A stretch of DNA of 64,000 bases from Klebsiella pneumoniae (GCA_945878555.1 CAMDWI010000010.1:6559-70558), one strand, 5' to 3'; positions 5,418 to 56,222 are shown, counted from the stretch's first letter. The notes: generated from the sequence alone by a model not told the origin. Translations and numbers: made by a program.

Positions 5418-5532
5418 ATGACTCCCACCCGACTTTCTGTCGGGTCCACTGTCTGATCACGTGGAGATAGAAATCTATACCGGATAACTTATACTGCCTG
5501 CCTTGATTGAAAATCCGGGTCCGGACGGGAAA

Positions 5533-8058: not shown

Positions 8059-8077
8059 GTAACGGATCATCACAGCA

Positions 8078-10116: not shown

Positions 10117-10128
10117 CAGGAATGCACA

Positions 10129-11010
10129 GTGCTGCCTGATCACCTGATTAGTGACCTCCGCTATATGGAGATATATACAGGACGGCGGTTTCCGAACCTG
10201 CGGGCGGGCTCCTTTCGCAGCAGGATGCGTGGCCCCGGTTTTGATTTTGATGAACACCGCGCCTACCGTGCCGGTGACGACGTGCGCCGGATAGACTGGA
10301 ATGTGACCGCACGACTGAATGCACCTTATGTACGCGAGACACATGCCGAGCGAGAACTGAACGTCATGATAGCCGTGGATGTCTCTCGCAGCATGATGCT
10401 GGGTACCGGTAAATATTCGAAAAAGGAGATCCAGTTGTTGCTGGCCGGGTGCCTGGTTTTTTCCTCATTGTCGGATCAGATCAATACCGGATTTCTCTCA
10501 TTTAGCGATCGGGTGCATGATTTTTACCCGCCGCGTCGGAACCGTGTCCAGGCCTGGCGGTTTCTGGAGCAGTTATGGGCGATGCAGCCGTCTGCAGGCG
10601 AGACAGGCATATTGTCGGCCGTCAGACATCTGGACAGCCATTTCCGCCAGGAAGGAGTCGTCTTTCTTATCTCCGATTTTCTGACGGCAGAAAATCTCGC
10701 TGAATCCCGCGAGTTAAAGATACTGGCAGCCAGACATGACATTATCGCGGTTGTTATTGAGGACGCGCTCGAACTGGAATTGCCTGGCGGTAATGCAGCT
10801 GTGGAGTTAAAGGACATGGAGACGGGACGGCGCAGGCGGATTGGATTAGATGCCTCCCAGCGGCAGCGTTATGCAGAGGCGATGCAACAACGCCGTCAGC
10901 AGCTGGTGGATGCGTTCTACCATGTCCCGATGGATTATGTGTTTGTGCGCTCGGACCAGCGCGCAGTGGAGTCATTATTGAACCTGTTTGCAGTGAGGAG
11001 GCGGATGTGA
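10129..11010 (+). CDS. DUF58-family protein (MoxR-associated, VWA-like)
   Basis: GTG start. The characteristic DUF58 N-terminal region is present (FDEHRAYRAGDDVRRIDWNVTARLNAPYVRE). It lies immediately downstream of moxR. Confidence 0.75.
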   Translation: MLPDHLISDLRYMEIYTGRRFPNLRAGSFRSRMRGPGFDFDEHRAYRAGDDVRRIDWNVTARLNAPYVRETHAERELNVMIAVDVSRSMMLGTGKYSKKEIQLLLAGCLVFSSLSDQINTGFLSFSDRVHDFYPPRRNRVQAWRFLEQLWAMQPSAGETGILSAVRHLDSHFRQEGVVFLISDFLTAENLAESRELKILAARHDIIAVVIEDALELELPGGNAAVELKDMETGRRRRIGLDASQRQRYAEAMQQRRQQLVDAFYHVPMDYVFVRSDQRAVESLLNLFAVRRRM

Positions 11011-12011
11011 AATTGACAGTGATGTTATCCGGTGTAGTGAGCCTGTTGTTACTGCTGGGCGGACCGACTGTGGCGCAACAGGCAGAGGCACCTGTGCTAC
11101 CGGGCGCAACAACCGACACGAGCAATGCCAACAGCCCGGTTCAGGTGCGACAGTGGGTAGATCGTACCGCCATTTTTCCCGGTGACAAGGTCAATTATTA
11201 TCTGGAAATCTCGGCCGCCCCTAACGTGGACATACTGTTGGATGATCTGGATGCCGGCCTGATCGAGTTGACCGGACTGGAATTCGTCAATATGGAACAG
11301 CGAACAGACGAGATTGATGGCACGCGTACCCGTCTGGTACATTATGAATTTACCACTTATGACCTGAACACACCGGTCATGCAGATAGGTGGCCAGACGG
11401 TGCGTTATTATTCCCGCAGCAATACCGCACAGTCCGGCTCTCCGGAGGGCGAAGTGGTGCTTCCACCCACGGCCGTATCATTACGCAGCACGCTCGCCGC
11501 CGAACCGCTACGGTCGAGGCTGCGTGACGGTACATCAACTGTCATAACCGCCGCCGATACCGGCTGGGTTTCAATAACCGGTCTGTTGCTGATATTGTTA
11601 TCAGCATTGCCGGTGGGAGTCTGGGCGATCAGCTGGTGGCGTCAACGGACCGAAGCCGTGCGGCAACAGGAGCAGGTCCATGCAACCGTGGTAGCTGAAC
11701 AAGGTGTCCTTGAGACCTTGCGTAGTGTGCGTTCTGAGAATGAGCCAGAGCGCCGGGCCGGGTATGATCAACTGGACAAGGTATTGCGCGACTGGCTTTT
11801 ACAATCAGGTGTCAGTCAGGGCACGACATGGACTTCAGGTGAGATGGCGCGTAAGTTGGCAGGCCACGGGCTGACGATGCCGGTGGATCAGTTGGTCGGC
11901 GTTATGGCGGATTGTGAACAGGCACGTTATGGCAGGGCTACCGATTTACCGGATGCCGGCCGCTTCCAGACCGGCGTCGAGCTGGTCCGGAGACTGTTGA
12001 TCGCGCAGTGA
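11007..12011 (+). CDS. Hypothetical membrane protein of the Bat-like cluster (possibly BatD-like)
   Basis: GTG start at 11007 preceded by GAGGAGG, overlapping the DUF58 stop. It has a signal peptide (MKLTVMLSGVVSLLLLLGGPTVAQQ), a periplasmic domain, one TM (ITGLLLILLSALPVGVWAISWW) and a cytoplasmic tail. I recognise no catalytic motif. Confidence 0.5.
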   Translation: MKLTVMLSGVVSLLLLLGGPTVAQQAEAPVLPGATTDTSNANSPVQVRQWVDRTAIFPGDKVNYYLEISAAPNVDILLDDLDAGLIELTGLEFVNMEQRTDEIDGTRTRLVHYEFTTYDLNTPVMQIGGQTVRYYSRSNTAQSGSPEGEVVLPPTAVSLRSTLAAEPLRSRLRDGTSTVITAADTGWVSITGLLLILLSALPVGVWAISWWRQRTEAVRQQEQVHATVVAEQGVLETLRSVRSENEPERRAGYDQLDKVLRDWLLQSGVSQGTTWTSGEMARKLAGHGLTMPVDQLVGVMADCEQARYGRATDLPDAGRFQTGVELVRRLLIAQ

Positions 12012-13027
12012 TGCCGCTGATCTTCCTCGAGCCACAGTTTATCTGGGTGCTGCCGTTACTGGCCATCCTTGGTCTGCTCTGGCGATTTTTCCGCAGGTCG
12101 AATTATATAGCGATAACGACACTCACGTGGCTGGATCCTGTTGTAGACAAAACCTCACTCTGGCGGCGTCTGCCTTCCATACTGATATTGCTGGCAACCG
12201 TGCTGATTGTGCTGGCGTTGATGGGCCCGGTTGTACCCTACACTGAACAGCAGGTCGAGTCCGAGGGACTGGATATTGCGATTGTGCTTGACCTGTCTGC
12301 CAGTATGCAGGAGGTGATGGACCGCAAGGAACCGCCACCCGGAACCCGGGTGGACCGGCGACTGGAAAAGATGACGATGGAGCAGGAAGGCAAGACCAGA
12401 CTGGTTACAACGCTGGATGCCTTGCGATTGTTTATTAATAGTCGGCGCGAAGACCGGATTGCCCTCATCGTATTTTCAGACAATGCCTATGTGGTCAGTC
12501 CATTAACCTTCGATTATGACTATTTGCTACAGTATCTCGATATGATCGATGCGAATATCCTGCAGGGCGAGGGCATGACCGCCATTGGTGACGGTATTGC
12601 ACTTGCAAATTACCTGCTTGACAGACAACGCGAGGACCCGCCACGTAGCCAGGTGATTGCTGTCTTTACTGATGGTGAGCACAACATTGGTCGGGAACCG
12701 GTCGAGGTGCTGGGCGAATCGAATGCAGTCGGCATACGTTTCCATGTAGTCGGGGTTGATCTGGAGGAGAAGATCAAGAGTAATGAGCCGGTCAAAAATC
12801 TGATTGGGGCAGTAACAGGCTATGGCGGGCGGTATTTTGATGCGAATACCGAGAGCGAGTTATTTGAGGCATCCAGGACTATCTCCGGCCTGGAGAAGGT
12901 CCAGCTGGTCAGTCGCGAGTACGTTCGCCATTCCCCCGTGTTTCACTGGTTTGCCTTGCCCGCTGGCCTGTTAGTGCTGATGGCGTTTGCCTTGAGAACC
13001 AACTCTTACTTTACCGATTTCACCTGA
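12011..13027 (+). CDS. VWA-domain membrane protein (BatA/BatB-like)
   Basis: Starts ATG at 12011 (or GTG at 12008) and overlaps the upstream stop. N-terminal TMs, then a VWA domain with IAIVLDLSASMQE, and a C-terminal TM. Confidence 0.75.
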   Translation: MPLIFLEPQFIWVLPLLAILGLLWRFFRRSNYIAITTLTWLDPVVDKTSLWRRLPSILILLATVLIVLALMGPVVPYTEQQVESEGLDIAIVLDLSASMQEVMDRKEPPPGTRVDRRLEKMTMEQEGKTRLVTTLDALRLFINSRREDRIALIVFSDNAYVVSPLTFDYDYLLQYLDMIDANILQGEGMTAIGDGIALANYLLDRQREDPPRSQVIAVFTDGEHNIGREPVEVLGESNAVGIRFHVVGVDLEEKIKSNEPVKNLIGAVTGYGGRYFDANTESELFEASRTISGLEKVQLVSREYVRHSPVFHWFALPAGLLVLMAFALRTNSYFTDFT

Positions 13028-40087: not shown

Positions 40088-41590
40088 TTATACCTGACCC
40101 AGAGCGGCGGTAGAAGGGAATACCAGTGATTTGATTACAACGGGTACGGCACCGGAGGTCGCTATCATCGCACCGATGTCGATAAAATCGAATTCCTTCA
40201 GTCTGATACCATCAATCGACACGACAGGGTTTTGCAGGTCACAGTCTGAGTGGCAATGCAGGCCTATCAAGCCGCCCACATCGCCTTCATTGACCAGTAC
40301 CAGAGGTGTGTCGGCAGAGAGCACCGCTGACATACCCTTGATCACACCACGACAGAACGCATCCAGTCGCGCGTAGGTTGCGGAACCCTCCCACCGGAAA
40401 CAGACCGCCACAGTCCGGCTACTGTCTGTCAGTTCCGAGCGGACCAGCGCCTCTGATACCGCATGGGCAATATCATCTATGACCAGCGTCTCGGTCTGCA
40501 GCGGTAAATCCGGGATAATGACCGGCATATTACGCAATGGCAGGCTGGCACCGGCAGAAACATATATGGTGTTACCACTGACCTGGATGGTGTACTGCGA
40601 GGCACCGATAACCGTGGCTCGTATACCTTGGGCAGGTATGGCCAGCCTGGGTCCCCAGTTTTCTGCACGTTTTCTCACTGCAGCGGCAAGCAGCGGTCCG
40701 AGATCCCCGAAATGACCACTCTCTTTACCGTAGATATATTCTGACACTCCGCCAGAAAAGGTCATGATATCCGGTATGACACGCGTGTCTTTAAGCGGCG
40801 CCAGACGTAACAGCGCGCTTGCTGCCTCGTCCAGTGGCGCGGCCCCCATCGCCTGCATTACGCAATCTGCCATCCGTTCAACCAGTGTATTGAGCTGGTT
40901 CGGGTTCAGTTGTGTACCAATTTCAATGTCGATACCTGCCTCGCTGGCAAATCGTCGGCCTGCCTCTTCCAGCCGGTAGACCCGGCCGTTTTCATCCACA
41001 CAGATAATACGTGCACCGACATCAATAACAGTCATGTCTGCGATATGGCCGGCATGACAGACCGAAATCTTCGACGTTCCCCCGCCGATATCGACATTCA
41101 TGACCCTGACATTATCACTGCGGGACATATCAACCGCACCGGAGCCGTAGGCTACCAGCGTAGTCTCCAGCGCGTCACCGGCACTGACGGCAACAAACTT
41201 GCCTGCCTGATTGGCAAACAGTTCACCTATGGCGCGGGCATTACTGCGTCTGACCGCGACCCCTGTCAGTATCAATGCGCCGGTGTCAATCTGATCCGGT
41301 AACAGGCTGGCGAGCTGATACTGCTGGCTGATAAACCGCCCCAGCGCATCTGCGTCTATGGTCGTTTCATCAGAGTAGGGTGTCAGCAACACCTCGGATT
41401 CGAATTCGACTTCACGTTTTGACACCAGATACCGGTTCCCGAATCGTTCCATCGTAATCCGGGAAAAAATGATGTGTGAAGTCGAGGATCCGATATCGAC
41501 ACCAACACTGAGCAGTTCGATCTCGTTTTCCTGTTCCAGTGTGCGACCGGCATTTGTGAAAATGATGGTATCGGTTGAAATATCTGACAT
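40088..41590 (-). CDS. EutA-like ASKHA-superfamily protein (ethanolamine-utilisation reactivase family), orphan
   Basis: 500 aa. The N-terminus LLSVGVDIGSSTSHIIFSRITM and the internal block VMNVDIGGGTSKISV...GARIICVDENGRVY align with the E. coli EutA motifs (LLSVGIDIGTTTTQVIFSRLEL; LNIDIGGGTANYALF). I see no eutBC genes in the window. Confidence 0.6.
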   Translation of the reverse strand: MSDISTDTIIFTNAGRTLEQENEIELLSVGVDIGSSTSHIIFSRITMERFGNRYLVSKREVEFESEVLLTPYSDETTIDADALGRFISQQYQLASLLPDQIDTGALILTGVAVRRSNARAIGELFANQAGKFVAVSAGDALETTLVAYGSGAVDMSRSDNVRVMNVDIGGGTSKISVCHAGHIADMTVIDVGARIICVDENGRVYRLEEAGRRFASEAGIDIEIGTQLNPNQLNTLVERMADCVMQAMGAAPLDEAASALLRLAPLKDTRVIPDIMTFSGGVSEYIYGKESGHFGDLGPLLAAAVRKRAENWGPRLAIPAQGIRATVIGASQYTIQVSGNTIYVSAGASLPLRNMPVIIPDLPLQTETLVIDDIAHAVSEALVRSELTDSSRTVAVCFRWEGSATYARLDAFCRGVIKGMSAVLSADTPLVLVNEGDVGGLIGLHCHSDCDLQNPVVSIDGIRLKEFDFIDIGAMIATSGAVPVVIKSLVFPSTAALGQV

Positions 41591-41674
41591 AGGGATGGTG
41601 GTTATTCGCTGGTGGTAGTTGGAAAAATCCCGGGGACGTATCAGGAGACTGTCCCCGGGACATGCATAGACAAA

Positions 41675-42895
41675 TTATTTCTTGTAGACGTAGTCCTTGT
41701 ATTCTGGCGGAACGTCATACAGTGACTGGTCCATACGGGTGGTATCGCCCTCTTTCGCGAGGATACCTTCGTACTCCTTGCGCAGATACGGGTCTTCCAT
41801 CCAGTACGGGATGGCGGTACCGCCCTCTGGCAGTTCCATGCCGGTATAGTCCATGTGTTTCTCTCCGGGAGGACCCGGGTCACGGCCGGGATTGTGCGGG
41901 CCGAACCAGGCGGTCAGTCGTAACGGCTCCTTCGAGGCGCTGAAATGCTGGTGATACCAGCGGGCTCCGCCAGGTGCGGCGGTTACCATGCCACCGGGTA
42001 TATAATCTATGCGACGGACCTGATCGCCATTGCCGTCCTTCCAGGGGGTGGGTCCCAGATGTTCTGGCCAGGTATAGGTGTAACCCTTGCCTTTCAGACA
42101 GATCAGGATCGCGGCGGAGGTATGCGCATGCGCCTTTGAGTAGCGCCCACCTTCGTGCTGACCAATCCAGAAATAGAAGGAGTTGCGTGTCATGTGCGGT
42201 TCGATGCGGCGCCAGCCCGGTGAGCGGCGGTTATCCAGCGGCAGGTCGCAATTGATGGCGTCCGGGATAAAGTTGGTGCGACGCATGGCCAGTCCGCGTA
42301 CAGGGTCAGTTTCAACATCGGCCTTGTACTTGTAAAAATCGTCCTCGGTGCTGAAGCGGTCGGAAAATACGAACGGGTTATTGAACACCGCATCAATATT
42401 CTGCAAGGAATTAATTACTACCGGTGCGGTTGTGCCTGCCTGCATCAGCGCAGGTGTATTGGTAGCATTCACTATCCGGTGCCAGGCATTCATCGGAATC
42501 GAGAATAACGAGCCTTTCTGCCATTCAAAGATATGTTTTTTGCTTTCCAGGCCATCCAGCCACACCTCGGTTGACCCGCGACCTTCGACGACCAGATAGA
42601 TCTTCTCGAACATGTGGCGTTCCGGGTTCAGTGCGCCAGCGGCAGGAATTTCAACGGCATAACCGCCCCACTTGCCTTCGGTACCATATAACTGGATGTA
42701 GCAGCCCTTGCCACCCACCCGTTTCCAGGGTTTTAAAGGTAGTTCGCGTATATCGCGAATACCGAGCTCACGGAATACCGGGATGCCTTCGGATTCCATG
42801 AATGTATCGTAAGCCAACGGCAGTTTTTTGAACTTGCCGAATCCTGCCCGTTTGCCTTCGGTCGGTTCGACCCAGGGTTTATGCTCGTCTGACAT
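41675..42895 (-). CDS. Bicupin-family protein (paralog of 17742-18857)
   Basis: 406 aa with the cupin motifs SKAHAHTSAAILICLKGKG and RWYHQHFS. Its N-terminal 100 aa is collinear with 17742-18857 (..LVVEGRGSTEVWLDG vs ..MILSGRGSTTVWNDAG). Confidence 0.7.
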   Translation of the reverse strand: MSDEHKPWVEPTEGKRAGFGKFKKLPLAYDTFMESEGIPVFRELGIRDIRELPLKPWKRVGGKGCYIQLYGTEGKWGGYAVEIPAAGALNPERHMFEKIYLVVEGRGSTEVWLDGLESKKHIFEWQKGSLFSIPMNAWHRIVNATNTPALMQAGTTAPVVINSLQNIDAVFNNPFVFSDRFSTEDDFYKYKADVETDPVRGLAMRRTNFIPDAINCDLPLDNRRSPGWRRIEPHMTRNSFYFWIGQHEGGRYSKAHAHTSAAILICLKGKGYTYTWPEHLGPTPWKDGNGDQVRRIDYIPGGMVTAAPGGARWYHQHFSASKEPLRLTAWFGPHNPGRDPGPPGEKHMDYTGMELPEGGTAIPYWMEDPYLRKEYEGILAKEGDTTRMDQSLYDVPPEYKDYVYKK

Positions 42896-43189: not shown

Positions 43190-43269
43190 AGGTTAGCCCG
43201 CTGATAACGGGTTGATATTGTTGTCTGGTATAACCTGTATTTGCAGCGGTATTGAGGGGAACGAGAGTT

Positions 43270-43644
43270 ATGGGCAGGGTCATGTTTATGTTACAGATAA
43301 CAGTATTGTTGATACTGCTGTCTGGCGCCGCCAGTGCATCGGATGGTGATGTCGATTACTCCTCGCCTTACATCACTGTTGACCCCAAGACGGGTCAATT
43401 GATCACAGTAAACCCCGGGCCACGTCTAAAGACTCATTCAGCCGAGGACATGCCGGGGATGTCACAGATGGAGACGGAACAATCACCAGCCCAAACCAGT
43501 CCGGTTGCAAGTCAGCCTGTTGCAGACCAACCGGCAACAGCGACAGACCCTAAACAATCCGGCTTTATCGCCATTGTTGTGGTTGGACTGCTGGTTTTCG
43601 CAACTATGGCATACCGGCGATTAAGGCACCGTCAGCCGGGCTAA
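43270..43644 (+). CDS. Small secreted/anchored protein, amidohydrolase-associated family member C
   Basis: ORF 43252 (TTG)..43644. I prefer the ATG at 43270, which has GAGGGGA 9 nt upstream. Signal peptide MGRVMFMLQITVLLILLSGAASA, then ...SSPYITVDPKTGQLITVNP, a Pro/Gln/Ser/Thr/Ala-rich linker, the hydrophobic segment FIAIVVVGLLVFATMAY and an RRLRHRQPG tail. Confidence 0.65.
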   Translation: MGRVMFMLQITVLLILLSGAASASDGDVDYSSPYITVDPKTGQLITVNPGPRLKTHSAEDMPGMSQMETEQSPAQTSPVASQPVADQPATATDPKQSGFIAIVVVGLLVFATMAYRRLRHRQPG

Positions 43645-43717: not shown

Positions 43718-45934
43718 ATGAACAGATACAGATTTTTCCCGGCGATGCTAGCATCGACCTTACTGGCAGCGATGCTTGCACCGGTAGTACCGGCGCAGAC
43801 TACCGCGACCGTACCAAGTGAGCTCGTCAGTTATCCGGAGACGATTGTCGTCAACGGCAAGATATACACGATGGATAACAAGTCGGTCTTGTCGAATGAT
43901 CCAGGTACGGTAGTCGAGGCAATGGTCATCCGTGGTGGCAAGGTCTTCGCGACCGGGAACCGTGCCGACATGATGAAGTTTGCAGGTCCGCAGACCCGTG
44001 TTATTGACGTAAAGGGCAAGACAGTCATACCGGGCATCATCGAAACGCATGTACACCCCGAAAGTACGATGAATGCAGTCCGCCTGTTCGAGGCAGAACG
44101 GGATCAGTATTCATTACCGCCAGGTCTCCATACTGCGATCCTGTTGCCAAGTGACAATGCAGCGGATACCTACGCAGCCGTGGCCGAATTTATCAAGAAA
44201 TATCCACCGGAACCGGGCGAATGGGTCCACATCCGTCTGGTTGAAAATCCCGATACCAATTACCCTGATATAGGTGCTTTGACGAACGGTATTTATAATG
44301 ATTTTCTGACCTTGGGTGAATTCAGCAAGGCCATACCGAATAACCCGGCCACGCTGGCCAGTGGTACCACGCCAAGCGCGATTGAGCAGCCTGGTCTGGT
44401 TGTTCGGGTACGCCTGGCCGATGATGGCAAGGCGAAGATGGAGCCGTTGAGTGTACCGCAGGCGCTGAAAGAACTGACCAATCCTGCGGTCTATGCGGAC
44501 GCACAGGATCCGTTCCGTCAGTTGTTCAAGGAAAACGCCGACAAGGCACGTGAAGATTCCTATCACGCCCACCTTGCACAGGGTTGCGGATATTCTGAAC
44601 TGTACCCGCACCATATGCAGCATTGCAGTCACAGAAATATCCTCCTGAATCAGAAGGGTCTGGACAAGACGCTGGAGTCCTGGCCGGGCTTCAAGGTTGC
44701 AGCGAATGACATGACCGGCCTTAGCAAGTTAGGCAAGGAAGGTGACAGAGGTATTGTGGGTGGAGTATTCCAGGAAAGTGGTGCCTGGGAGCGGGTGATC
44801 AATCCGCCAAGGATGCCAAGGCAGTTGACCATGGACCTGCTCGAAGGTGCGCTGAAAATGTACACCAGTGCCGGTGTGACCATGCTGGCGTCCAGCGTGG
44901 AATACGGCACAGCCATGACCGCTGTTTATGACCTGCTGCGCCGTGACAAGCGTCTGCCGGTCAGGTGGGGTTATGGGTTTGAAATGTTCAGAAGCCCGGT
45001 GATGTACCCGAACAATGCGCTGACAGTGGTCGAGATGGGTGCGCACCACGGCTCTATCGATACGAATGAATGGTTCTGGCCGATGGGTATCACCGACGGC
45101 GGTGTGGGTGACTCCCGTCAGGTGGCCTGTTTCGGCGATGATTTGCCCGGTCCCGAGATGTTAAAGAGCAGGGAGTTATGCTGGGAAGAAGACGCCTATC
45201 GTATCAAGAAGGTCCTGCAGCCAGCATTGATGACAGGCTGGCGTCCATTCAGTCTGCATTCATTTGGCAGCGAGGCGTTCAGAAAGCATGTGGCCTGGAT
45301 TGAAGAGGCCAGGGTAATGGGTCGTATGTCAATGGATGATATCCGTGCCTTACGTATTGGCTTTGCCCACGGTGGTGCTATCGGCAAGGTGCCCGAGGTT
45401 GTTGAGTTGATGAAGCGTTACAACCTGTATGTGCCTATCCAGCCGAATGACGTATCAGCCTCGCTGACCCAGGTGAAACGCTACGGACCGGAAGGCCTGG
45501 AGTTTCTGGCCCCGACCAAGACATTGCTTGAGGCCGGTGTACATATCGTCGGCGAGACCGAGTACAGTCATCCGCGCCCGGACATCTATTTCAATGCGCT
45601 GGACATGTTTGTAAATCGCCGTGTAAGACATGAAAGCATGCCGAAGGGTGAAGGCGAGATAGTGATGCCGGAAGAGGCTGTCAGCCGAGCAACCGCATTG
45701 CGCCTGTATACCAGCAAGGCAGCAGAGTGGCTGTTTGCCGAACATGTGGCCGGAACACTGGAGCCGGGCAAGTTTGCTGACTTTACCGTGCTGGAGCGCG
45801 ATTACTTTACGGTACCCGCAGATGAAATCCTGGACAACAAGGCCATCATGACACTCGTTGGTGATCAGATTATCTATCAGGATCCTGAATACAAGCCGGG
45901 AATTGCCACCGCGAATGCGACGGCGGCACAGTAA
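43718..45934 (+). CDS. Secreted metal-dependent amidohydrolase (Amidohydro_3-like), long form
   Basis: 738 aa. RBS GGGGG; signal peptide ..LAPVVPAQT. The HxH motif is VIPGIIETHVHPES and the C-terminal signature is GTLEPGKFADFTVLERD. Confidence 0.8.
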   Translation: MNRYRFFPAMLASTLLAAMLAPVVPAQTTATVPSELVSYPETIVVNGKIYTMDNKSVLSNDPGTVVEAMVIRGGKVFATGNRADMMKFAGPQTRVIDVKGKTVIPGIIETHVHPESTMNAVRLFEAERDQYSLPPGLHTAILLPSDNAADTYAAVAEFIKKYPPEPGEWVHIRLVENPDTNYPDIGALTNGIYNDFLTLGEFSKAIPNNPATLASGTTPSAIEQPGLVVRVRLADDGKAKMEPLSVPQALKELTNPAVYADAQDPFRQLFKENADKAREDSYHAHLAQGCGYSELYPHHMQHCSHRNILLNQKGLDKTLESWPGFKVAANDMTGLSKLGKEGDRGIVGGVFQESGAWERVINPPRMPRQLTMDLLEGALKMYTSAGVTMLASSVEYGTAMTAVYDLLRRDKRLPVRWGYGFEMFRSPVMYPNNALTVVEMGAHHGSIDTNEWFWPMGITDGGVGDSRQVACFGDDLPGPEMLKSRELCWEEDAYRIKKVLQPALMTGWRPFSLHSFGSEAFRKHVAWIEEARVMGRMSMDDIRALRIGFAHGGAIGKVPEVVELMKRYNLYVPIQPNDVSASLTQVKRYGPEGLEFLAPTKTLLEAGVHIVGETEYSHPRPDIYFNALDMFVNRRVRHESMPKGEGEIVMPEEAVSRATALRLYTSKAAEWLFAEHVAGTLEPGKFADFTVLERDYFTVPADEILDNKAIMTLVGDQIIYQDPEYKPGIATANATAAQ

Positions 45935-46269: not shown

Positions 46270-47289
46270 ATGTCGATGACGACTGAACAGCAGCCTGCTG
46301 CCGACCTGCCGAAGCTGGAGCAGGTGCATGACAGTATCGTTGCACTTGAGAATGAGGTCCGGAAACGTATTGTGGGTATGGACAAGGAGATGGATCAGAC
46401 CCTGATTTGTCTGTTTGCCGGTGGTCACATCCTGCTCGAAGGTGTACCTGGACTCGCCAAGACCCTGTTTTTCAAGACACTGGCCGAAGCGGCAGATGTC
46501 GAGTTTCGCCGTATTTCGTTTGCAGCAGATCTGTTACCCAAGGACATTATCGGAATCGAGCATTTTGATTTTGCCACCAAGAAGCTGGAGCTGGTGGTCA
46601 AGGGGCCGCTGCATACCAACTTCCTGTTAACGGATGAATTGAACCGTGCCCGTACCAGCTCAAAGGGTTCTGTACTGGAGCCGATGGAAGAAGGCCAGGT
46701 TACGACGGAGTTGGGGGGGACCTATAAACTGAAAGAACTGTTTATGGTAATCGCCACCCAGAATCCGGTGGAGGAAGAGGGTACCTTCGGCCTCGGCAGG
46801 GCAGAAAAGGACAGATTTCTGATGATGGTACCGCTCGGCTATCCCTCGCCGGAAGACGAGGAGACCATCATTACCCGCTACGGAGTTACGGGTGGTATGC
46901 CGGTTATCAAGCCGGTCATCCATGAAAAAGAAATACTGGCAGCACGCAAGGCCATCCGTTCCGGTGTGCATGTCGAGCCGTCAATCGTGCATAAAATCCA
47001 GCAGATCCTGAATGAGACCCGCCCGGAACGTACGGGGATAACCAGTATAAAACAGCTGGTTCAGCGTGGTGGTGGCGCGTCTCCCCGTGCTGGCCTCAGC
47101 ATGATCCAGGCAGCACGCGTCCATGCCGTATTGCAGGGTAATGCGTTTGTCCGACCGGATGATATTGCTGCCGTTGTATTACCGATATTGCGTCATCGTC
47201 TGGTCTTCAAGCCAGGTGAAGTTGAACTGGAAGAGACGGAAGTTCGCCTGCACGAAATTATTGATGAAATAATCAGCAAGGTGCTCTGA
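46270..47289 (+). CDS. MoxR-family AAA+ ATPase (second copy)
   Basis: RBS AGGAG. Walker A LEGVPGLAKT and Walker B LLTDELNRA. 339 aa; paralogous to 9088-10116. Confidence 0.85.
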   Translation: MSMTTEQQPAADLPKLEQVHDSIVALENEVRKRIVGMDKEMDQTLICLFAGGHILLEGVPGLAKTLFFKTLAEAADVEFRRISFAADLLPKDIIGIEHFDFATKKLELVVKGPLHTNFLLTDELNRARTSSKGSVLEPMEEGQVTTELGGTYKLKELFMVIATQNPVEEEGTFGLGRAEKDRFLMMVPLGYPSPEDEETIITRYGVTGGMPVIKPVIHEKEILAARKAIRSGVHVEPSIVHKIQQILNETRPERTGITSIKQLVQRGGGASPRAGLSMIQAARVHAVLQGNAFVRPDDIAAVVLPILRHRLVFKPGEVELEETEVRLHEIIDEIISKVL

Positions 47290-47291
47290 CC

Positions 47292-48191
47292 TTGGATAGC
47301 AAGCAACTTCTGTTGCAGATCCAGCGTCGGCCCGTCACCTTTGTGCCGGGCAAGAAGGTAGTTAGCATACTGCCTGGCGAGTGGACCAGCCCGTTTTCCG
47401 GCAAGGGGTACGAGCCGATGGGCTATCGTGACTTCCAGCTGGGTGATGATCCGCGCCGGATTAATCTGACCGCCTCTGCAAGACGGGGAATTCCGACCAT
47501 TGTTGAACGTGTCGCGCTGCGTGATTTTAATGTCATGGTTGTGGTCGATGGCTCACCGTCAATGCGGGTGCGGGACAAGATGGAGACCCAGATCAGCGCG
47601 GTCGCGCTACTGTTGTATTCTGCCTGGCAGGCTGAAACTACCTTCAGCTTCGGTATCCGGACTGAAACCGGTATACGCAGTTTTGGCCTCGGTATCGGTT
47701 CGCGCCATTTCTATCATCTTTACCGCGCATTATGGCACTTTTATTCCGGTACCGATGACGGACGCATGAAGGGTGTGCGGGTTCCGTTGAACAGTTGTCT
47801 GCCACCAAATGCGATGCTGCTTTATTGTTCAGACTTTCTTGAGGGCGACGGCAAGCTGATTGATATGGCAAGGTTATGGCGTTCAGTGCAACGATATGAC
47901 TTTATACCCGTAATCATCCAGGATGAACTTGAGTACAGCTTCCCGGACTTGCCTTCGAGTACATTCATACCCTTCTCCAATCCTGAAACCGGTGCAAGGG
48001 AAGAGATCTGGATATCACCGAAAATCGCACGTGACATACGCTCGGTCCATCAGGCGCGTTTTGCCGAGCTTACAGGCATGATGGCATCACGTGGACTCAG
48101 TCCCCTGCATTTTGATTCGGCAAATGTTGAAACACACAGCCGGGAGATTGATCGGTATTTCCGTAAACGCAAGGGCCGGAATGCGGCATGA
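47292..48191 (+). CDS. DUF58-family protein (second copy)
   Basis: TTG start 2 nt after the moxR stop. The DUF58 N-terminal pattern is ...GYRDFQLGDDPRRINLTASARRGIPTIVERV. Confidence 0.65.
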   Translation: MDSKQLLLQIQRRPVTFVPGKKVVSILPGEWTSPFSGKGYEPMGYRDFQLGDDPRRINLTASARRGIPTIVERVALRDFNVMVVVDGSPSMRVRDKMETQISAVALLLYSAWQAETTFSFGIRTETGIRSFGLGIGSRHFYHLYRALWHFYSGTDDGRMKGVRVPLNSCLPPNAMLLYCSDFLEGDGKLIDMARLWRSVQRYDFIPVIIQDELEYSFPDLPSSTFIPFSNPETGAREEIWISPKIARDIRSVHQARFAELTGMMASRGLSPLHFDSANVETHSREIDRYFRKRKGRNAA

Positions 48192-49918
48192 ACAGGATCT
48201 TGTCCGCGCTGGATAGGGTCTCCCTCAGGCTGATGCTGCTACCGGCACTCGCTGTAATGTTTATATGTGGCTTTATCTTCATAGCATCGCTGGGTGGCAC
48301 TGCCGGACATCTGGTCCGCTTCGAGCCACAGCAGTCCGGTGATTTGCCAGCGGATCAGCAAATCGGCGGCTGGGCCAGTCTGGACAAGGACAGCTATATC
48401 CTCGGTGAGCAGGCCGGTTTCAGCATTCGCATTCTGTATCGACCGGCTGCTGTCATCCCTGACTTTGATACCTTCAAACGTAACATCGGCTTTCTGCCGT
48501 TCGATCAGTTAAATTCCAGCGAAACTGAGCACGATATTGGCAAGGGGATCCGCGAGTATAGACTGGAATATACCCTGCATGTGATCGGCGCGAGAAAACC
48601 AGGCAGTTATCCGTTTAATCCCGCCGTGCTTCCGTATTCAAATGCCGGGGCCACAGGCAGTGATCTGCACACACTGAGGATCAACCGCCCGGAACTGCGT
48701 ATCGGCTCGCTCTATCACTGGGATGCGGGACTGATACCATTGCGACCGATCCGCGGTCACATACTGGAACAGCAAGCCTTGCGTCAGTCAGCCATGCTGG
48801 CAGGCGCTGTGGTGTTGTTGAGCATGCTGGCATTTTTACTCTGGCGATACGGAAGGCGCCGTCAACTGCATGAAATGAGCAGCGCTGAACAGCTCTGGTT
48901 CCAGTTCAGGCAACCGCGAGACCCGGCGATGGACAACCGGTCCGTGATGCTGGCATATGAACGGATCTTTACCCGCCTCTTGCAAGAGCAGATATCGATG
49001 GATCCGGAAATGTTCTGGTCCGGTCATCAGCCCGCAGATGATGCCTGGTGCGGCAGTGTCGATCAGGCGAGGACGCTGTTATGGCGTTTGTATCAGCCGG
49101 GAGAAACAGTGGATGACGATGTTCGTCTCATGCATGTATTACTGGCAGACAGGCTTGCTCTCAGTGTAGAGGAACAAAGACTGGTCGTTGAGCAACAACC
49201 TTCATTGATCGAGCGACTGAAGTTGCAACAGTCGGTGGCAACGGTAATTATCATTACAGGCATTAGCGGAGTGTCCCTGCTGGCACTTGCGGTGACGCCT
49301 GACATGTGGCTTGCCTCTGAGGTACGTAATTACAACCAGACTGTTGACCTTATCAATGCGTCCCATGGTTACGACGAAGACCTGTTGCTGGAATTACAGT
49401 CTTTTGCGGCAACTGCGGAGATACCGGAGATCCGGGCAGCGGCTTTTTATAATAGTGGCACGACCCGGGCCAGATACAGTTTTGCTGACAGTGGTCCTGC
49501 GGTCCAGTCCCGGATACTCGAACTGGTGTTTCAGGCAGAGACGGCGGAAGACCTGATGCAGACACTGTTGCTGAGTGAGATGTCTCCTTCGGAAGAAGAC
49601 GTGGTCAAAATGATGATAGCGGCAGCCGAGAAATTGTTGCAGGCCGAACTCGATCTTCAGGCGGCCACACGTGGACTGCGGGCCAGTGACGATGTCCTCA
49701 GAAATCTGGAACTGGTTACACGTTGGCGTCACGCGATTCTTACCCGTCTGTTGCAGTTACGTGAATTGTTCAGTACGAAGCCTGGCGAGGCGGGTGATGA
49801 AGAGATAATTTCAGATCAGGGTGTCGTTGATATTATCAACGCAAAGATACCGGAAGAATATGACGATGCCGAGATGGCCAAAGACAACAGCCACTACATA
49901 ATCTTTGAGCGGTTCTGA
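48188..49918 (+). CDS. Hypothetical membrane protein of the second Bat-like cluster (BatD-like topology)
   Basis: The ATGA overlaps the DUF58 stop. N-terminal TM, then a ~190-aa periplasmic segment, a central TM (AGAVVLLSMLAFLLWRY) and a long helical cytoplasmic domain. This is the same topology as 11007-12011. Confidence 0.5.
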   Translation: MNRILSALDRVSLRLMLLPALAVMFICGFIFIASLGGTAGHLVRFEPQQSGDLPADQQIGGWASLDKDSYILGEQAGFSIRILYRPAAVIPDFDTFKRNIGFLPFDQLNSSETEHDIGKGIREYRLEYTLHVIGARKPGSYPFNPAVLPYSNAGATGSDLHTLRINRPELRIGSLYHWDAGLIPLRPIRGHILEQQALRQSAMLAGAVVLLSMLAFLLWRYGRRRQLHEMSSAEQLWFQFRQPRDPAMDNRSVMLAYERIFTRLLQEQISMDPEMFWSGHQPADDAWCGSVDQARTLLWRLYQPGETVDDDVRLMHVLLADRLALSVEEQRLVVEQQPSLIERLKLQQSVATVIIITGISGVSLLALAVTPDMWLASEVRNYNQTVDLINASHGYDEDLLLELQSFAATAEIPEIRAAAFYNSGTTRARYSFADSGPAVQSRILELVFQAETAEDLMQTLLLSEMSPSEEDVVKMMIAAAEKLLQAELDLQAATRGLRASDDVLRNLELVTRWRHAILTRLLQLRELFSTKPGEAGDEEIISDQGVVDIINAKIPEEYDDAEMAKDNSHYIIFERF

Positions 49919-49927
49919 CAGGGCAGT

Positions 49928-50992
49928 ATGAACGCGCTGGCAGCGATAGTTGAATCAATCAGTTTCGCTACTCCCGAACTGGCGCTTTTGATATTGCCGC
50001 TGGTAATGATATTGATATGGCAGTTGTATGGGGATCGGAGGCTCGGTGCCCTGCAGCTTACCGGGCTTGAATATCTGGCAGGCTCCGGCATACGCAACAG
50101 CCAATCCAGAAAACGGTTACAGGTTGCGATGCGGTGCGTGATGGTTGCCGGGCTGGGACTCTTGCTCGCCGGGCCTGTTTATCGCTCCGCCACACCACTG
50201 TTTTCCCAGGATACCAGGGTATTACAAAGGAATTTTGTGGTGGCGTTTGATATGTCACCGTCGATGAATCTCCCTGCCAGTTCGAAAGGTTTTGGTGGTG
50301 ATGATTTGAAGGAAGGTGATGGTGGTGTTACCCGTTATGAGATGGCCAGAGATGCATTTCACGATTTTCTGGACAGGTTTCGGGGCGAGCGATTTGGACT
50401 GATCCTGTTCAGCACCGAACCCTTTTTTGCACGCTGGCCGACGATTGAGACGGAGAACCGTTTTGATGAGGTGCTGGAAAGCATACGACGTGGGTCGGGT
50501 ACCCAGCTGGAGGCGTTTTCCTCACTGACAAATATTGACAAGGGTTTGCTGATGGCACGCAAGGCCTTTAATGGAGAGGAAGGCGCGATCATCCTGATTT
50601 CAGATGCAGAGGACGATCTGGAGAACCTGGGGCGTGGTGTGCGTAGCCTGCGCCAGGCCGGAATTCGTTTATATACACTGGGGGTTGGAATACCGGACGA
50701 TATCCTGGCAAGGATATCGCAGGAATTTGCCGCGGACCCGGGTTTCCGGATATTCCGTGCAGATTCCGGGCAGGACATGGAAGAGGCCTATCGTGTTGTC
50801 AGCGAGATTGAGGAGTCGCCACAGTTTGTTGATGAGACCCGGGTCTTTGAGACGGATTTACGGGCCCCGTTAGCTGCACTACTCGCAATAATTGCGGTCT
50901 TGTTGCTAGTCATCAATGAAGTTATGTTCCATCAGACTGTTAGCATGAAACTATCATCCCGCCCTGTACTGAAGGTCAGCGATGGGTTTTGA
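49928..50992 (+). CDS. VWA-domain membrane protein (BatA-like, second cluster)
   Basis: N-terminal TMs, then a VWA domain with MIDAS FVVAFDMSPSMN, and a C-terminal TM (LAALLAIIAVLLLVI). Confidence 0.75.
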   Translation: MNALAAIVESISFATPELALLILPLVMILIWQLYGDRRLGALQLTGLEYLAGSGIRNSQSRKRLQVAMRCVMVAGLGLLLAGPVYRSATPLFSQDTRVLQRNFVVAFDMSPSMNLPASSKGFGGDDLKEGDGGVTRYEMARDAFHDFLDRFRGERFGLILFSTEPFFARWPTIETENRFDEVLESIRRGSGTQLEAFSSLTNIDKGLLMARKAFNGEEGAIILISDAEDDLENLGRGVRSLRQAGIRLYTLGVGIPDDILARISQEFAADPGFRIFRADSGQDMEEAYRVVSEIEESPQFVDETRVFETDLRAPLAALLAIIAVLLLVINEVMFHQTVSMKLSSRPVLKVSDGF

Positions 50993-51953
50993 TTATCCCT
51001 GGGTCCTGGCCCTGTTTGCAATGCTCGTACCACTGGTATGGGCGATGCGCAAGAGCGGGACAGTGACCAGGACAATACTGCTGAAGTTCCGCAGTGCGCC
51101 ACCGACATCCCGTTATTTCAGGTTGCGTAATCTATTTACCATTCTGTTTACTTCTGCGCTGGTGCTTGTCGGTGCAGGTCCGTATATCGAACCACAACAG
51201 ACAGCTGACTACCTGTTTCTGGTTGATACCTCACGCAGCATGCATGCACGCAACTCCTGTGACGAACCGACGTTTCTGGATCGCGCAAAAAATGTCATGT
51301 TCGATGTGATGGATGATGTACCCGAAGCCAGATTCGGAATCGTGGCCTTTGACAGGCTGGCTTTCCCGGTAACACAGCTGACCTTTAATCACAGTTATCT
51401 CCGCTCTGCCATCAATAACGGTGTGTTTGTAGGCATGACCTACCGGGCGACTGACACGGATCTGTTCAACGCACTAAAAGTGATTGCTGCCAAAAAGCAG
51501 ACCATGCCGGAGTTGTATGGAAATGTCGAATATGCCGTGCTGATAAGTGATGGTTATCTGGATGAAGAGGACTGGCGACAGAATATGGAACAGCCAATGA
51601 AGGACCTTTTGGCGTCCGGTATTACGCTTCTGGTCGTTGGTGTGGGTAATCCTGTCGACACACCAATCCCGGTAACGGATATTGATGAGGTATGCAGTGA
51701 TGCCCTGACTGAAATCGATGGCAAGACCATCCGGATCCCGTTGCGCAAGGATATCCTGCAGACTATCGCTGCAGGCGGGCAGGGTGAATATTTTGATGAG
51801 ACGACCACGGGGGAGCTGGTCAACTATCTGCGTGGCCGAACCCTGAAACAGGCGACCGATGATGTGCAGTTCGGAACCGATCAGCGTAAAAATATCGGAC
51901 TGATGTTTTTGTATCCGGCAACGCTGGCGCTGGCCGGTTTGTTACTTCTGTAG
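50982..51953 (+). CDS. VWA-domain membrane protein (BatB-like, second cluster)
   Basis: Overlaps the upstream gene by 11 nt. VWA MIDAS motif YLFLVDTSRSMH, with N- and C-terminal TMs. Confidence 0.75.
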   Translation: MGFDYPWVLALFAMLVPLVWAMRKSGTVTRTILLKFRSAPPTSRYFRLRNLFTILFTSALVLVGAGPYIEPQQTADYLFLVDTSRSMHARNSCDEPTFLDRAKNVMFDVMDDVPEARFGIVAFDRLAFPVTQLTFNHSYLRSAINNGVFVGMTYRATDTDLFNALKVIAAKKQTMPELYGNVEYAVLISDGYLDEEDWRQNMEQPMKDLLASGITLLVVGVGNPVDTPIPVTDIDEVCSDALTEIDGKTIRIPLRKDILQTIAAGGQGEYFDETTTGELVNYLRGRTLKQATDDVQFGTDQRKNIGLMFLYPATLALAGLLLL

Positions 51954-53332: not shown

Positions 53333-53459
53333 CAGTATAAATGGGTCAGGACAAACCGGTTTATCGGGGTATCTATACAAGACCGGCCTGACAGGTATCG
53401 CTCCTGCAGGCCGGTTTGTGTGTCATCGCCAAGTCTCCGGTCAAGAGACTTGTGTCCGC

Positions 53460-55899: not shown

Positions 55900-56222
55900 C
55901 GAATGTATGAGTCGGATGAAATGACTTTTCGCCCGGGACTATCAGGTGGTGCAGGTTAATATGCAGACGGGACAGCGTCCGCTCAAATCCATTATTGTTT
56001 GATTTGGATCAAAAACGGAATTGCTTGTTTATATATACTTTAGGCTGGGCATCTTCAGCAAAACACACCAGACAGATGCTAAGATGTTGAATTGTATATA
56101 AAATTTGTTTTTCTGAACCTGTCTGCTTCTCATCGAAATGTGATAGCAGCTTAGTGAACAACTATAAAATATGTAGTAGACTGGTCGCGATTTATTCAGT
56201 AACAATTTTGGAGGGGTTTTAC

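What the first reader, a model, noticed from the sequence alone, without database searches (positions are those of the whole stretch)
46270..51953. Bat-like MoxR module 2 (MoxR, DUF58, 576-aa membrane protein, two VWA proteins): a paralogous second copy about 35 kb away
Two complete MoxR-DUF58-VWA modules within 45 kb is unusual. The two modules differ in arrangement: module 1 puts a VWA gene before moxR, and module 2 puts both VWA genes after. They also differ in the size of the middle membrane protein (334 vs 576 aa). This points to divergent specialisation rather than a recent duplication. Each module lies next to a cluster of secreted hydrolases, so they may be dedicated chaperone or assembly systems for envelope proteins.
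Basis: partly seen in the sequence, partly recalled or inferred. Interest (0 to 1): 0.5.

Follow-up and report, generated by a model that had tools for sequence, protein, structure and literature searches.

The report
MoxR–VWA module tied to secreted amidohydrolase
The second MoxR/VWA gene module is real, intact and an ancient (not recent) paralogue of the first, and comparison with related genomes shows it always sits just after one particular exported metal-dependent amidohydrolase, which suggests that enzyme is its client in a class of systems whose function is mostly unknown.

Summary
Window 46270-51953 encodes five tightly packed genes: MoxR AAA+ ATPase, DUF58, a 576-aa membrane protein with no Pfam match, and two BatA-like membrane VWA proteins. 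All ATPase and MIDAS motifs are intact.

Module 1 (7474-13027) has six genes, not five: a 194-aa membrane-anchored helical protein precedes its first VWA gene.

The two modules are ancient paralogues. The MoxR copies are 36% identical, and each is 50-88% identical to counterparts in other genomes. The four VWA proteins pair one-to-one across the modules. The 334-aa and 576-aa middle proteins are homologous over about 280 residues. The 576-aa protein adds a third membrane helix and a TPR-like domain.

In every related locus where the upstream gene is visible (13 loci, about six distinct contexts), a signal-peptide-bearing YtcJ-like Amidohydro_3 orthologue lies directly upstream. One clade keeps amidohydrolase, 573-aa protein and two VWA genes, with no MoxR or DUF58 within 10 kb.

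My best reading is an envelope-spanning Bat/MxaRSACKL-like machine that matures or assembles this periplasmic metallohydrolase. This is an inference; no activity was tested.

It is a new variant of a known kind, of moderate interest.

The parts
43718..45934 (+). Exported YtcJ-like Amidohydro_3 metallohydrolase (738 aa), the proposed client or partner of module 2.
   Evidence: Pfam Amidohydro_3 122 bits. Named 'predicted amidohydrolase YtcJ' by a source. N-terminus resembles a Sec signal peptide, with no twin arginine. The HxH motif (H111/H113), H514 and H551 are conserved in nine orthologues. An orthologue lies directly upstream of the module in all 13 related loci where upstream DNA is visible.
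46270..47289 (+). MoxR2, a cytoplasmic AAA+ ATPase (339 aa).
   Evidence: AAA_3 149 bits and AAA_lid_2 57 bits. ATPase motifs intact. 36% identical to MoxR1. Forms its own clade with 100% bootstrap. AGGAG Shine-Dalgarno sequence 9 nt upstream of the start.
47292..48191 (+). DUF58 protein (299 aa), cytoplasmic and VWA-like, equivalent in position to MxaS.
   Evidence: DUF58 68 bits. 28% identical to the module-1 DUF58. A DxSxS-type motif (VDGSPSM) can be read in the sequence. No hydrophobic helix.
48188..49918 (+). 576-aa, three-helix membrane protein. Residues about 40-200 form a periplasmic beta-sandwich, 225-345 a cytoplasmic helical domain, and 371-576 a periplasmic TPR-like domain. The C-terminal tail YIIFERF is invariant.
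49928..50992 (+). VWA protein A (354 aa). BatA-like, with two N-terminal and one C-terminal membrane helices. The VWA domain is predicted to face the periplasm.
   Evidence: VWA_2 34 bits; BatA N-terminal domain 24.1 bits, below its cut-off. MIDAS DMSPS...T...D intact. Sister to module-1 VWA 12008-13027, 83% bootstrap. The topology of a homologue was shown experimentally in PMC5700661.
50982..51953 (+). VWA protein B (323 aa), with the same membrane topology as protein A.
   Evidence: VWA 43 bits. MIDAS DTSRS...T...D intact. Sister to module-1 VWA 8078-9091, 97% bootstrap.
43252..43644 (+). Small protein (130 aa) with a signal peptide and a C-terminal membrane anchor, just upstream of the amidohydrolase. 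A possible accessory.
   Evidence: Conserved in position in L002, L006 and L007 at 45-48% identity. It shares architecture and a weak similarity with the 150-aa protein at 4857-5309, which lies next to the module-1 amidohydrolases. Its role is unknown.
40088..42895 (-). EutA-like ASKHA protein (500 aa) and bicupin (406 aa). Both lack signal peptides, so they are probably cytoplasmic. They are linked to the module in relatives.
   Evidence: Pfam EutA 390 bits and Cupin_2. The pair lies upstream in the window's clade and directly downstream of the second VWA gene in L004, at 63% and 84% identity. The link therefore survives a rearrangement.
7474..13027 (+). Module 1, six genes: 194-aa membrane-anchored helical protein, VWA, MoxR1, DUF58, 334-aa middle protein, VWA.
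   Evidence: Pfam results. The same six-gene order occurs in L013 and L025. The 194-aa protein is 38% identical to the 190-aa protein of L025.

Best explanation
Module 2 is an intact operon of the Bat/MxaRSACKL kind. It pairs a cytoplasmic MoxR AAA+ ATPase and its DUF58 adaptor with three inner-membrane proteins. Those three proteins display two MIDAS-bearing VWA domains, a beta-sandwich domain and a TPR-like domain in the periplasm.

It is an old paralogue of module 1, with one-to-one component correspondence. The gene order is permuted, and the middle protein has gained a third membrane helix and a TPR-like domain. That addition may correspond to module 1's separate 194-aa protein.

The module is genetically tied to one exported YtcJ-like amidohydrolase. 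The most likely job is to mature this Sec-exported metalloenzyme after export. That could mean loading or remodelling its metal centre, or assembling or holding it at the membrane. The VWA and TPR domains would bind the enzyme, and MoxR-DUF58 would supply ATP-driven remodelling through the cytoplasmic domain of the 576-aa protein.

Shown here: gene content, intact motifs, ancient paralogy, homology of the middle proteins, the TPR-like fold, and the conserved adjacency to the amidohydrolase. Inferred: membrane topology, physical interaction, the client relationship, and metal insertion.
For: Domains and motifs:
- Pfam assignments; ATPase and MIDAS motifs intact.

Paralogy:
- MoxR copies 36% identical, DUF58 copies 28%.
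- MoxR and VWA trees have 83-100% bootstrap on the key splits.

Middle proteins:
- The A1 profile found about 55 proteins of roughly 330 aa that match only its positions 15-330.
- An HMM built from those proteins hits the 576-aa protein at 3e-41 and the 334-aa protein at 3e-11.
- hhalign gives 99.9% and 98.5% probability for the same two links.

TPR-like C-terminal domain:

Client link:
- Orthologues of the 738-aa amidohydrolase lie directly upstream in L001-L003, L006 and L007 (82-100% identity), L005 (40%), L008-L011 (55%), L020 (33%, 4-bp gap) and L022 (34%), and in the JGI contig, where only the gene list was available.
- In L008-L011 the block of amidohydrolase(s), 573-aa protein and two VWA genes sits between trpE and trpG, with no MoxR or DUF58 within 10 kb.
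- All amidohydrolases carry signal peptides, and the metal-ligand histidines are conserved.

Precedent:
- NorQ/NorD insert iron (PMC9976466 and PMC13036017).
- The VWA domain of the BatA-like protein BB0173 faces the periplasm (PMC5700661).

Module-1-type relatives:
- In these, a secreted PIG-L-family gene overlaps the first module gene by 4 bp.
Against: - No expression, interaction or activity data exist. The client link rests on gene adjacency only.
- The family is small and confined to uncultured Gammaproteobacteria. L008-L011 share one context, and so do L001-L003, L006 and L007. The number of independent contexts is therefore about six, not thirteen.
- One clade lacks MoxR and DUF58 nearby. 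Either the ATPase is dispensable or it is supplied from elsewhere. I could not tell which.
- A 335-bp gap separates the amidohydrolase from moxR in the window.
- Homology of the middle protein and the C-terminal domain to MxaA and MxaK was not tested.
- The match of the 194-aa protein and of Bacteroides BatC to the C-terminal domain is weak (E 0.003-0.09).
- The metal and the substrate of the amidohydrolase are unknown.
- The window's module 1 is not directly next to its amidohydrolases; three genes intervene.
Confidence: 0.55

Rival explanations
1. It is a general envelope-maintenance or stress-tolerance Bat-like system with no specific client, as proposed for Bacteroides BatI, Rhizobium RL3499-3502 and the Francisella and Riemerella MoxR operons. 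The neighbouring hydrolase genes would then reflect shared ancestry or shared regulation only.
For: The domain set matches Bat operons. Published phenotypes of such operons are pleiotropic, covering stress and envelope integrity (PMC3893208; PMC5700661). Many of the loci with the adjacency come from related MAGs.
Against: The adjacency to the same amidohydrolase orthogroup holds while everything else around it changes: a catabolic island, an insertion in the trp operon, and housekeeping neighbours in L022. It persists down to 23% identity of the middle protein. In L020 only 4 bp separate the two genes.
Confidence: 0.2
2. It is a periplasmic scaffold rather than a maturation machine. The VWA, TPR and beta-sandwich proteins would tether the hydrolase at the inner membrane as part of a nutrient-acquisition line: a TonB-dependent receptor, then a periplasmic hydrolase, then uptake and cytoplasmic bicupin/EutA-like enzymes. 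MoxR would be an optional regulator.
For: A TonB-dependent receptor, a bicupin and an EutA-like gene are linked to the module. The trio of membrane proteins persists with the amidohydrolase where MoxR and DUF58 are absent. TPR and VWA domains are protein-binding modules.
Against: No direct evidence supports it. In L008-L011, L020 and L022 the receptor, bicupin and EutA-like genes are absent from the locus. In the systems characterised so far, MoxR/VWA machines remodel proteins or insert metals.
Confidence: 0.15
3. It is an export chaperone. MoxR2 would act in the cytoplasm on the amidohydrolase precursor to keep it competent for secretion, as reported for M. tuberculosis MoxR1 and the secreted hydrolase RipA.
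For: There is a precedent: an MRP-type MoxR is required for secretion of a hydrolase (PMC4810496, listed). The amidohydrolase is exported.
Against: The signal peptide has no twin-arginine motif, which points to Sec export of unfolded protein. The parts that stay with the amidohydrolase when MoxR is absent are the periplasm-facing membrane proteins.
Confidence: 0.07
4. It is a MoxR-VWA conflict or anti-phage defence system.
For: There is a weak Pfam match of MoxR2 to bpMoxR: 25.7 bits, below the 27-bit cut-off.
Against: No PADLOC model matches any of the six proteins. There is no beta-propeller or effector gene. The VWA proteins are BatA-like membrane proteins. The neighbours are metabolic genes.
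Confidence: 0.02

Closest known systems
MxaRSACKL accessory genes of methanol dehydrogenase (Methylorubrum, Paracoccus)
   Same: The component list is the same: a MoxR ATPase, a DUF58/VWA-like protein, a membrane protein of about 300 aa, a membrane VWA protein, a small protein and a second VWA protein. These genes also lie next to the gene of a periplasmic metalloenzyme. All six are needed for Ca2+ insertion (PMC12276312). The order R-S-A-C-(K)-L matches module 2 if the K-like part is fused to the A-like protein. Module 1 reads as the circular permutation K-L-R-S-A-C. That mapping rests on my recollection of Mxa protein sizes and on the assignment of MxaS to DUF58.
   Different: The neighbouring enzyme is an amidohydrolase-superfamily hydrolase, not a PQQ dehydrogenase. 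Sequence homology of the 576-, 334- and 194-aa proteins to MxaA and MxaK could not be tested, because no Mxa sequences were available to me. The metal is unknown.
Bacteroides aerotolerance (BatI) operon and its spirochaete and rhizobial relatives
   Same: The start of the operon has the same order: MoxR, DUF58, a middle protein annotated as BatD family, VWA, VWA, followed by a TPR protein (L024). The module-1 middle-protein family (A2) and the intermediate family (A3) each align along the whole length of the Bacteroides 362-aa middle protein, weakly (E about 1e-4). Fusions of BatD-like and TPR parts are known in Borrelia BB0170 (PMC5700661).
   Different: There is no large BatD (606 aa) and no BatE (TPR + SH3). 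The TPR part is fused to the middle protein behind an extra membrane helix. The BatA N-terminal domain scores below its Pfam cut-off. The module is tied to a specific exported enzyme, which has not been described for Bat operons.
NorQ/NorD, CoxD/CoxE and CbbQ/CbbO pairs of MoxR and VWA proteins
   Same: A MoxR ATPase works with a MIDAS-bearing VWA partner on one dedicated enzyme, often to insert a metal (PMC9976466 and PMC13036017; PMC3893208).
   Different: Those belong to other MoxR subfamilies (CGN and APE2220). They act in the cytoplasm or at the cytoplasmic face of the membrane, and they have a single soluble VWA partner rather than membrane proteins that face the periplasm.

Membership tests
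MoxR AAA+ ATPases, MRP (MoxR proper) type | AAA_3 ATPase domain plus AAA lid, above the curated cut-offs. | tested here: met
   AAA_3 149 bits (cut-off 27) and AAA_lid_2 57 bits (cut-off 22.7) for 46270-47289.
MoxR AAA+ ATPases, MRP (MoxR proper) type | Intact Walker A, Walker B, sensor 1, arginine finger and sensor 2. | tested here: met
   GVPGLAKT, LLTDELNRA, ATQNP, DRF and GASPRAG are conserved in five orthologues.
MoxR AAA+ ATPases, MRP (MoxR proper) type | Gene neighbourhood with DUF58 and VWA genes. | tested here: met
   DUF58 starts 2 bp after moxR, and two VWA genes lie in the same operon.
Bat (Bacteroides aerotolerance) operon | Two BatA/BatB-type membrane VWA proteins with the N-terminal double-membrane-helix BatA domain. 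| tested here: inconclusive
   VWA domains are present with intact MIDAS motifs, and the pattern of two N-terminal plus one C-terminal hydrophobic helices is present. However, Pfam BatA scores 24.1 bits against a 25.9 cut-off in one protein and does not match the other. The NCBIfam BatA and BatB models score far below their cut-offs.
Bat (Bacteroides aerotolerance) operon | A BatD-family middle protein between DUF58 and the VWA genes. | tested here: inconclusive
   Position and architecture match. hhalign against the Bacteroides finegoldii 362-aa 'BatD family protein' gives E 1.2e-4 (55% probability) for the intermediate family A3 and E 1.3e-4 (54%) for the module-1 family A2. Pfam BatD matched only 1 of 51 intermediate-family members. 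The large BatD did not match.
Bat (Bacteroides aerotolerance) operon | TPR proteins BatC and BatE, and the large BatD, downstream of the VWA genes. | tested here: not met
   No such genes follow 51953; the next gene is on the opposite strand. A TPR-like domain exists only as the fused C-terminus of the 576-aa protein. Its sequence match to BatC is weak (E 0.0055-0.09).
Bat (Bacteroides aerotolerance) operon | Aerotolerance or envelope phenotype. | not testable with these tools
   This needs genetics in a cultured host. The organism is known only as a metagenome-assembled genome.
MxaRSACKL-type metal-insertion system | MoxR (MxaR), DUF58-like (MxaS) and two VWA proteins (MxaC, MxaL). | tested here: met
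   The domain content matches. The Mxa roles and domain classes are as stated in PMC12276312.
MxaRSACKL-type metal-insertion system | MxaA-like and MxaK-like proteins. | not tested
   No Mxa sequences could be obtained. The one Paracoccus plasmid hit I examined was a different operon, and the paper's supplement is not held. Only size, position and membrane architecture are comparable.
MxaRSACKL-type metal-insertion system | Genetic linkage to a periplasmic metalloenzyme that depends on the system. | tested here: inconclusive
   Linkage to an exported enzyme with conserved metal ligands is shown. Dependence is not testable here.
MoxR-vWA-beta-propeller ternary conflict systems / anti-phage defence | bpMoxR domain above its cut-off, a beta-propeller partner, and a match to defence-system models. 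| tested here: not met
   bpMoxR scores 25.7 bits against a 27 cut-off. There is no propeller gene. PADLOC finds nothing.

The most novel reading that the evidence does not exclude
The 576-aa protein and the two VWA proteins, with or without MoxR-DUF58, form a dedicated periplasmic assembly machine. It loads or activates the metal centre of a Sec-exported amidohydrolase-superfamily enzyme. If so, this would be, to my knowledge, the first client-specific case for a Bat-type MoxR system outside methanol dehydrogenase. It would also show that the periplasm-facing trio can persist without a neighbouring ATPase. More generally, 'Bat-like' operons would then be client-specific maturases of exported metallohydrolases. 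The secreted PIG-L protein coupled to module-1-type operons would be a second example.
Probability: 0.3. Interest if true: 0.65.

Novelty: new variant of a known kind. Interest (0 to 1): 0.45.

Why it matters
MoxR-DUF58-VWA ('Bat-like') operons are among the most widespread bacterial gene clusters without a defined molecular function. Published phenotypes are vague: aerotolerance, stress tolerance, envelope integrity.

To my knowledge, the only case with a defined client for this class of operon is the Mxa system of methanol dehydrogenase. A variant that is reproducibly tied to one exported amidohydrolase offers a concrete enzyme to assay. Metal content, activity and stability can be measured with and without the module, which makes the mechanism testable.

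The one-to-one mapping between two permuted paralogous modules also clarifies which components are the invariant core: MoxR, DUF58, a protein with a beta-sandwich, a membrane helix and a helical domain, and two VWA proteins, possibly with a membrane-anchored TPR-like element if the 194-aa equivalence holds.

Tried and rejected
- Direct comparison of the two middle proteins failed: BLASTP gave nothing, HMM A1 against the 334-aa protein gave nothing, and hhalign of A1 against A2 gave only E 1e-3. Homology appeared only through the intermediate family A3.
- Pfam scans of all 13 family members at E up to 10 gave only noise.
- The afdb50 fold library was unavailable.
- A broad 38-sequence alignment had no stretch conserved enough for a metagenome scan. 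The scan with A1 returned only short contigs.
- The third protein search, with alignment A4, returned the same 13 proteins.
- To obtain Mxa sequences I ran a tblastn of MoxR1 against plasmids. The Paracoccus aminovorans hit I examined was a different MoxR operon, with SpoIIM and RDD genes. The paper's supplement is not held.
- Equivalence of module 1's 194-aa protein, Bacteroides BatC and the 576-aa C-terminal domain remains suggestive only. They share a motif of the form P-D-[DE]-D-x-[KR]-[YN]-x-E-L, with E 0.003-0.09.
- The defence-system reading is rejected.
- No Rfam family or tRNA is present in the window.
- The promoter and terminator scan gave no clear signal in the 335-bp gap before moxR.
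- PDB and NCBIfam gave no specific identity for the amidohydrolase, the bicupin or the 468-aa neighbour.

Full report
**1. Observation**

ORF listing and Pfam/NCBIfam scans confirm five co-directional genes at 46270-51953:
- MoxR (AAA_3 149 bits, AAA_lid_2 57 bits)
- DUF58 (68 bits)
- a 576-aa protein with no family
- two VWA proteins; the first also has a sub-threshold BatA N-terminal domain match

The genes are separated by 2 bp, a 4-bp overlap, 9 bp and an 11-bp overlap. An AGGAG ribosome-binding site precedes moxR.

Module 1 is also present as described: VWA 8078, MoxR 9088, DUF58 10129, a 334-aa protein 11007, VWA 12008. This is 7474-8058, a 194-aa protein with one membrane helix and a helical domain. 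The same six-gene order occurs in two distant relatives, L013 and L025. Their 190-aa protein is 38% identical to the window's (E 1e-43).

**2. Not a recent duplicate, and not degenerate**

MoxR1 and MoxR2 are 36% identical. The DUF58 proteins are 28% identical.

MoxR2 is 88%, 76%, 66% and 56% identical to the MoxRs of L002, L005, L020 and L022, and 35-40% identical to MoxR1. The L013 MoxR is 69% identical to MoxR1 and 35% to MoxR2. A neighbour-joining tree separates the two MoxR clades with 100% bootstrap.

The VWA proteins form four orthologous groups. The VWA that follows the middle protein in module 2 (49928) is sister to the one that follows it in module 1 (12008), with 83% bootstrap. The last VWA of module 2 (50982) is sister to the VWA placed before moxR in module 1 (8078), with 97% bootstrap. 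The different arrangement is therefore a permutation of the same parts.

Walker A/B, sensor 1, arginine finger and sensor 2 are intact in both MoxRs. The MIDAS motif DxSxS...T...D is intact in all four VWA proteins.

**3. The middle proteins**

The 576-aa protein belongs to a small family. There are 13 clusters in the word-indexed search of 5.8 billion proteins. A profile search of 1.84 billion representatives gave 123 hits, 52 of them below 1e-30.

That search also recovered about 55 proteins of 300-370 aa that match only profile positions about 15-330. An HMM built from 51 of them hits residues 15-312 of the 576-aa protein (3e-41) and residues 3-276 of the module-1 334-aa protein (3e-11).

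Profile-profile comparison confirms this. The intermediate family matches the 576 family at 99.9% probability, E 1.4e-36, over columns 48-327. It matches the 334 family at 98.5%, E 3.7e-15, over 260 columns. The direct comparison is weak (E 1e-3).

So the two middle proteins are distant homologues. Each has a signal anchor, a periplasmic beta-sandwich, a membrane helix followed by a basic stretch, and a cytoplasmic helical domain.

The tail ...D-N-S-x-Y-I-I-F-E-R-F is almost invariant in the family (D, Y, I, E, R and F in all 13 sequences). It is predicted to be disordered, which is typical of a short docking motif.

Module 1's 194-aa protein, Bacteroides BatC and this domain share a terminal repeat motif, but only at E 0.003-0.09. 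The idea that the extra domain equals a fused copy of the 194-aa or BatC-type protein is therefore plausible but not established.

**4. Topology (inferred)**

Hydropathy and the positive-inside rule place the following in the periplasm: the two VWA domains, the beta-sandwich and the TPR-like domain. MoxR, DUF58 and residues 225-345 of the 576-aa protein would be in the cytoplasm. A periplasm-facing VWA domain was shown experimentally for the BatA-like protein BB0173 (PMC5700661).

**5. Surroundings and related loci**

The window comes from an uncultured gammaproteobacterium. It is rich in paralogues: five Amidohydro_3 proteins, all with signal peptides; three bicupins; two TonB-dependent receptors; and two TctABC transporter sets.

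The gene immediately upstream of module 2 is a 738-aa exported YtcJ-like amidohydrolase.

Orthologues of this protein lie directly upstream of the module in every related locus where that side is visible:

| Loci | Amidohydrolase identity | Context |
|---|---|---|
| L001-L003, L006, L007 | 82-100% | same order as the window |
| JGI contig of P0003 | not measured (no DNA held) | Amidohydro_3 738 aa in the same position |
| L005 | 40% (partial gene) | amidohydrolase, MoxR, DUF58, 571 aa, VWA, VWA |
| L020 | 33%, signal peptide | stop codon 4 bp before moxR; middle protein only 23% identical |
| L022 | 34% (partial gene) | housekeeping genes downstream |
| L008-L011 | 55%, one or two copies | followed directly by the 573-aa protein and two VWA genes |

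In L008-L011 there is no MoxR or DUF58 within 10 kb. The whole block is inserted between trpE and trpG-trpD-trpC.

In L004 the upstream side is cut off. There the EutA-like and bicupin genes, which lie upstream in the window, sit directly downstream of the second VWA gene.

The amidohydrolase orthogroup keeps the HxH motif and two further histidines typical of the superfamily's metal site.

For module-1-type operons, the upstream gene in L013 and L025 is a secreted 920-aa PIG-L-family protein. Its stop overlaps the first module gene by 4 bp. In the window, three genes, including a HupE/UreJ_2-family membrane protein, separate module 1 from two exported amidohydrolases.

**6. Mechanism**

MoxR/VWA pairs are known to remodel dedicated enzymes and often insert metals. 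Examples are NorQ/NorD (PMC9976466, PMC13036017) and CoxD (PMC3893208).

The closest analogue in composition is MxaRSACKL. [quoted passage not shown]

By analogy, and given the conserved adjacency, I propose that module 2 matures the exported amidohydrolase in the periplasm, through metal loading, activation or assembly. The periplasmic VWA, TPR and beta-sandwich domains would bind it. MoxR-DUF58 would act from the cytoplasmic side through the 576-aa protein. This step is inference.

The clade without MoxR and DUF58 shows that the membrane trio plus the enzyme is the most persistent unit. The ATPase is either optional or encoded elsewhere.

The rivals are a general envelope-stress system, a tethering scaffold in a nutrient-uptake line, an export chaperone like MoxR1-RipA (PMC4810496), and a defence system. 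The last is rejected: PADLOC finds nothing, and bpMoxR scores below its cut-off.

**7. Comparison with known systems, and novelty**

The Bacteroides Bat operon (L024) shares the order MoxR, DUF58, BatD-family middle protein, VWA, VWA, TPR. It also has a large BatD and a BatE, which are missing here. The module-1 middle-protein family and the intermediate family align with the Bacteroides middle protein only weakly (E about 1e-4).

The module is therefore of the Bat/Mxa kind, but it is a distinct variant in three ways:
- it has a fused middle/TPR protein that is not in Pfam;
- it is restricted to a few gammaproteobacterial lineages;
- it is tied to a specific exported amidohydrolase.

Membership of the Mxa type at the level of MxaA and MxaK could not be tested.

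**8. Verdict**

This is a new variant of a known kind. Its interest is moderate. It is not a new principle, but it points to a concrete candidate client for a class of operons whose function is a long-standing puzzle.

Noticed in passing
L010 5374-15495; L011, L008 and L009 likewise: In Ca. Eutrophobius brisbanensis and three related gammaproteobacterial MAGs, a block of amidohydrolase(s), a 573-aa protein and two VWA genes is inserted inside the tryptophan operon, between trpE and trpG-trpD-trpC. No MoxR or DUF58 gene lies within 10 kb.
   Followed up: partly
window 492-2483 and 2713-4764: Two tandem exported Amidohydro_3 genes are 87% identical, which indicates a recent tandem duplication. 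This contrasts with the ancient split of the two MoxR modules. The window holds five Amidohydro_3 genes in all. Two of them (28069-29937 and 30367-32220 on the minus strand) lack the HxH metal motif.
   Followed up: partly
window 5503-6615: A membrane protein with DUF6702 and HupE/UreJ_2 domains lies between the tandem amidohydrolases and module 1. By name this family is related to HupE/UreJ, which I recall as nickel or cobalt permeases. It may bear on metal supply.
   Followed up: no
window 43252-43644 and 4857-5309: Two small proteins (130 and 150 aa) share an architecture: a signal peptide, a motif like DPxTGQ[LF][IV][TS]V, a low-complexity Ala/Thr/Pro-rich linker, and a C-terminal membrane anchor. 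Each lies next to an amidohydrolase gene near one of the two modules. Their similarity is weak (E 5e-5 without composition correction).
   Followed up: partly
window 40088-42895 (minus strand); L004 4436-7239: An EutA-like ASKHA protein is paired with a 406-aa bicupin, and no B12-dependent enzyme gene was identified among the annotated neighbours. The pair stays linked to the module in L004 after a rearrangement. Its function is unknown; the bicupin has no PDB or NCBIfam relative above threshold.
   Followed up: partly
window 51974-53380 (minus strand): A 468-aa exported protein with no family carries a CxxCH motif (CLRCH), so it may bind haem c. It is conserved downstream of the module in L002 and L007 at 63% identity. 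In L002 a small cytochrome c gene lies next to it, and in L020 a CopD/cytochrome c protein lies downstream of the module.
   Followed up: no
L006 8615-9102: In the MAG GCA_038922825.1 the moxR gene of the otherwise intact module is split into fragments of 100 and 62 aa. This is either a pseudogene or an assembly frameshift.
   Followed up: no
window 56154-59986: A pair of DUF1592/DUF1588/DUF1585/DUF1587/DUF1595 and DUF1552 proteins (Pfam PSD/PSCyt domains; I recall these as first described in planctomycetes) is followed by a 606-aa ankyrin-repeat protein (60013-61833), in a gammaproteobacterial MAG.
   Followed up: no
L013 3795-7126 and L025 1-2277: Module-1-type operons in two metagenomic contigs are translationally coupled to a secreted 920-aa PIG-L-family protein (PIG-L enzymes are, from my own knowledge, metal-dependent deacetylases). 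A TonB-dependent-receptor-like gene precedes it. This hints that different Bat-like modules have different hydrolase partners.
   Followed up: partly
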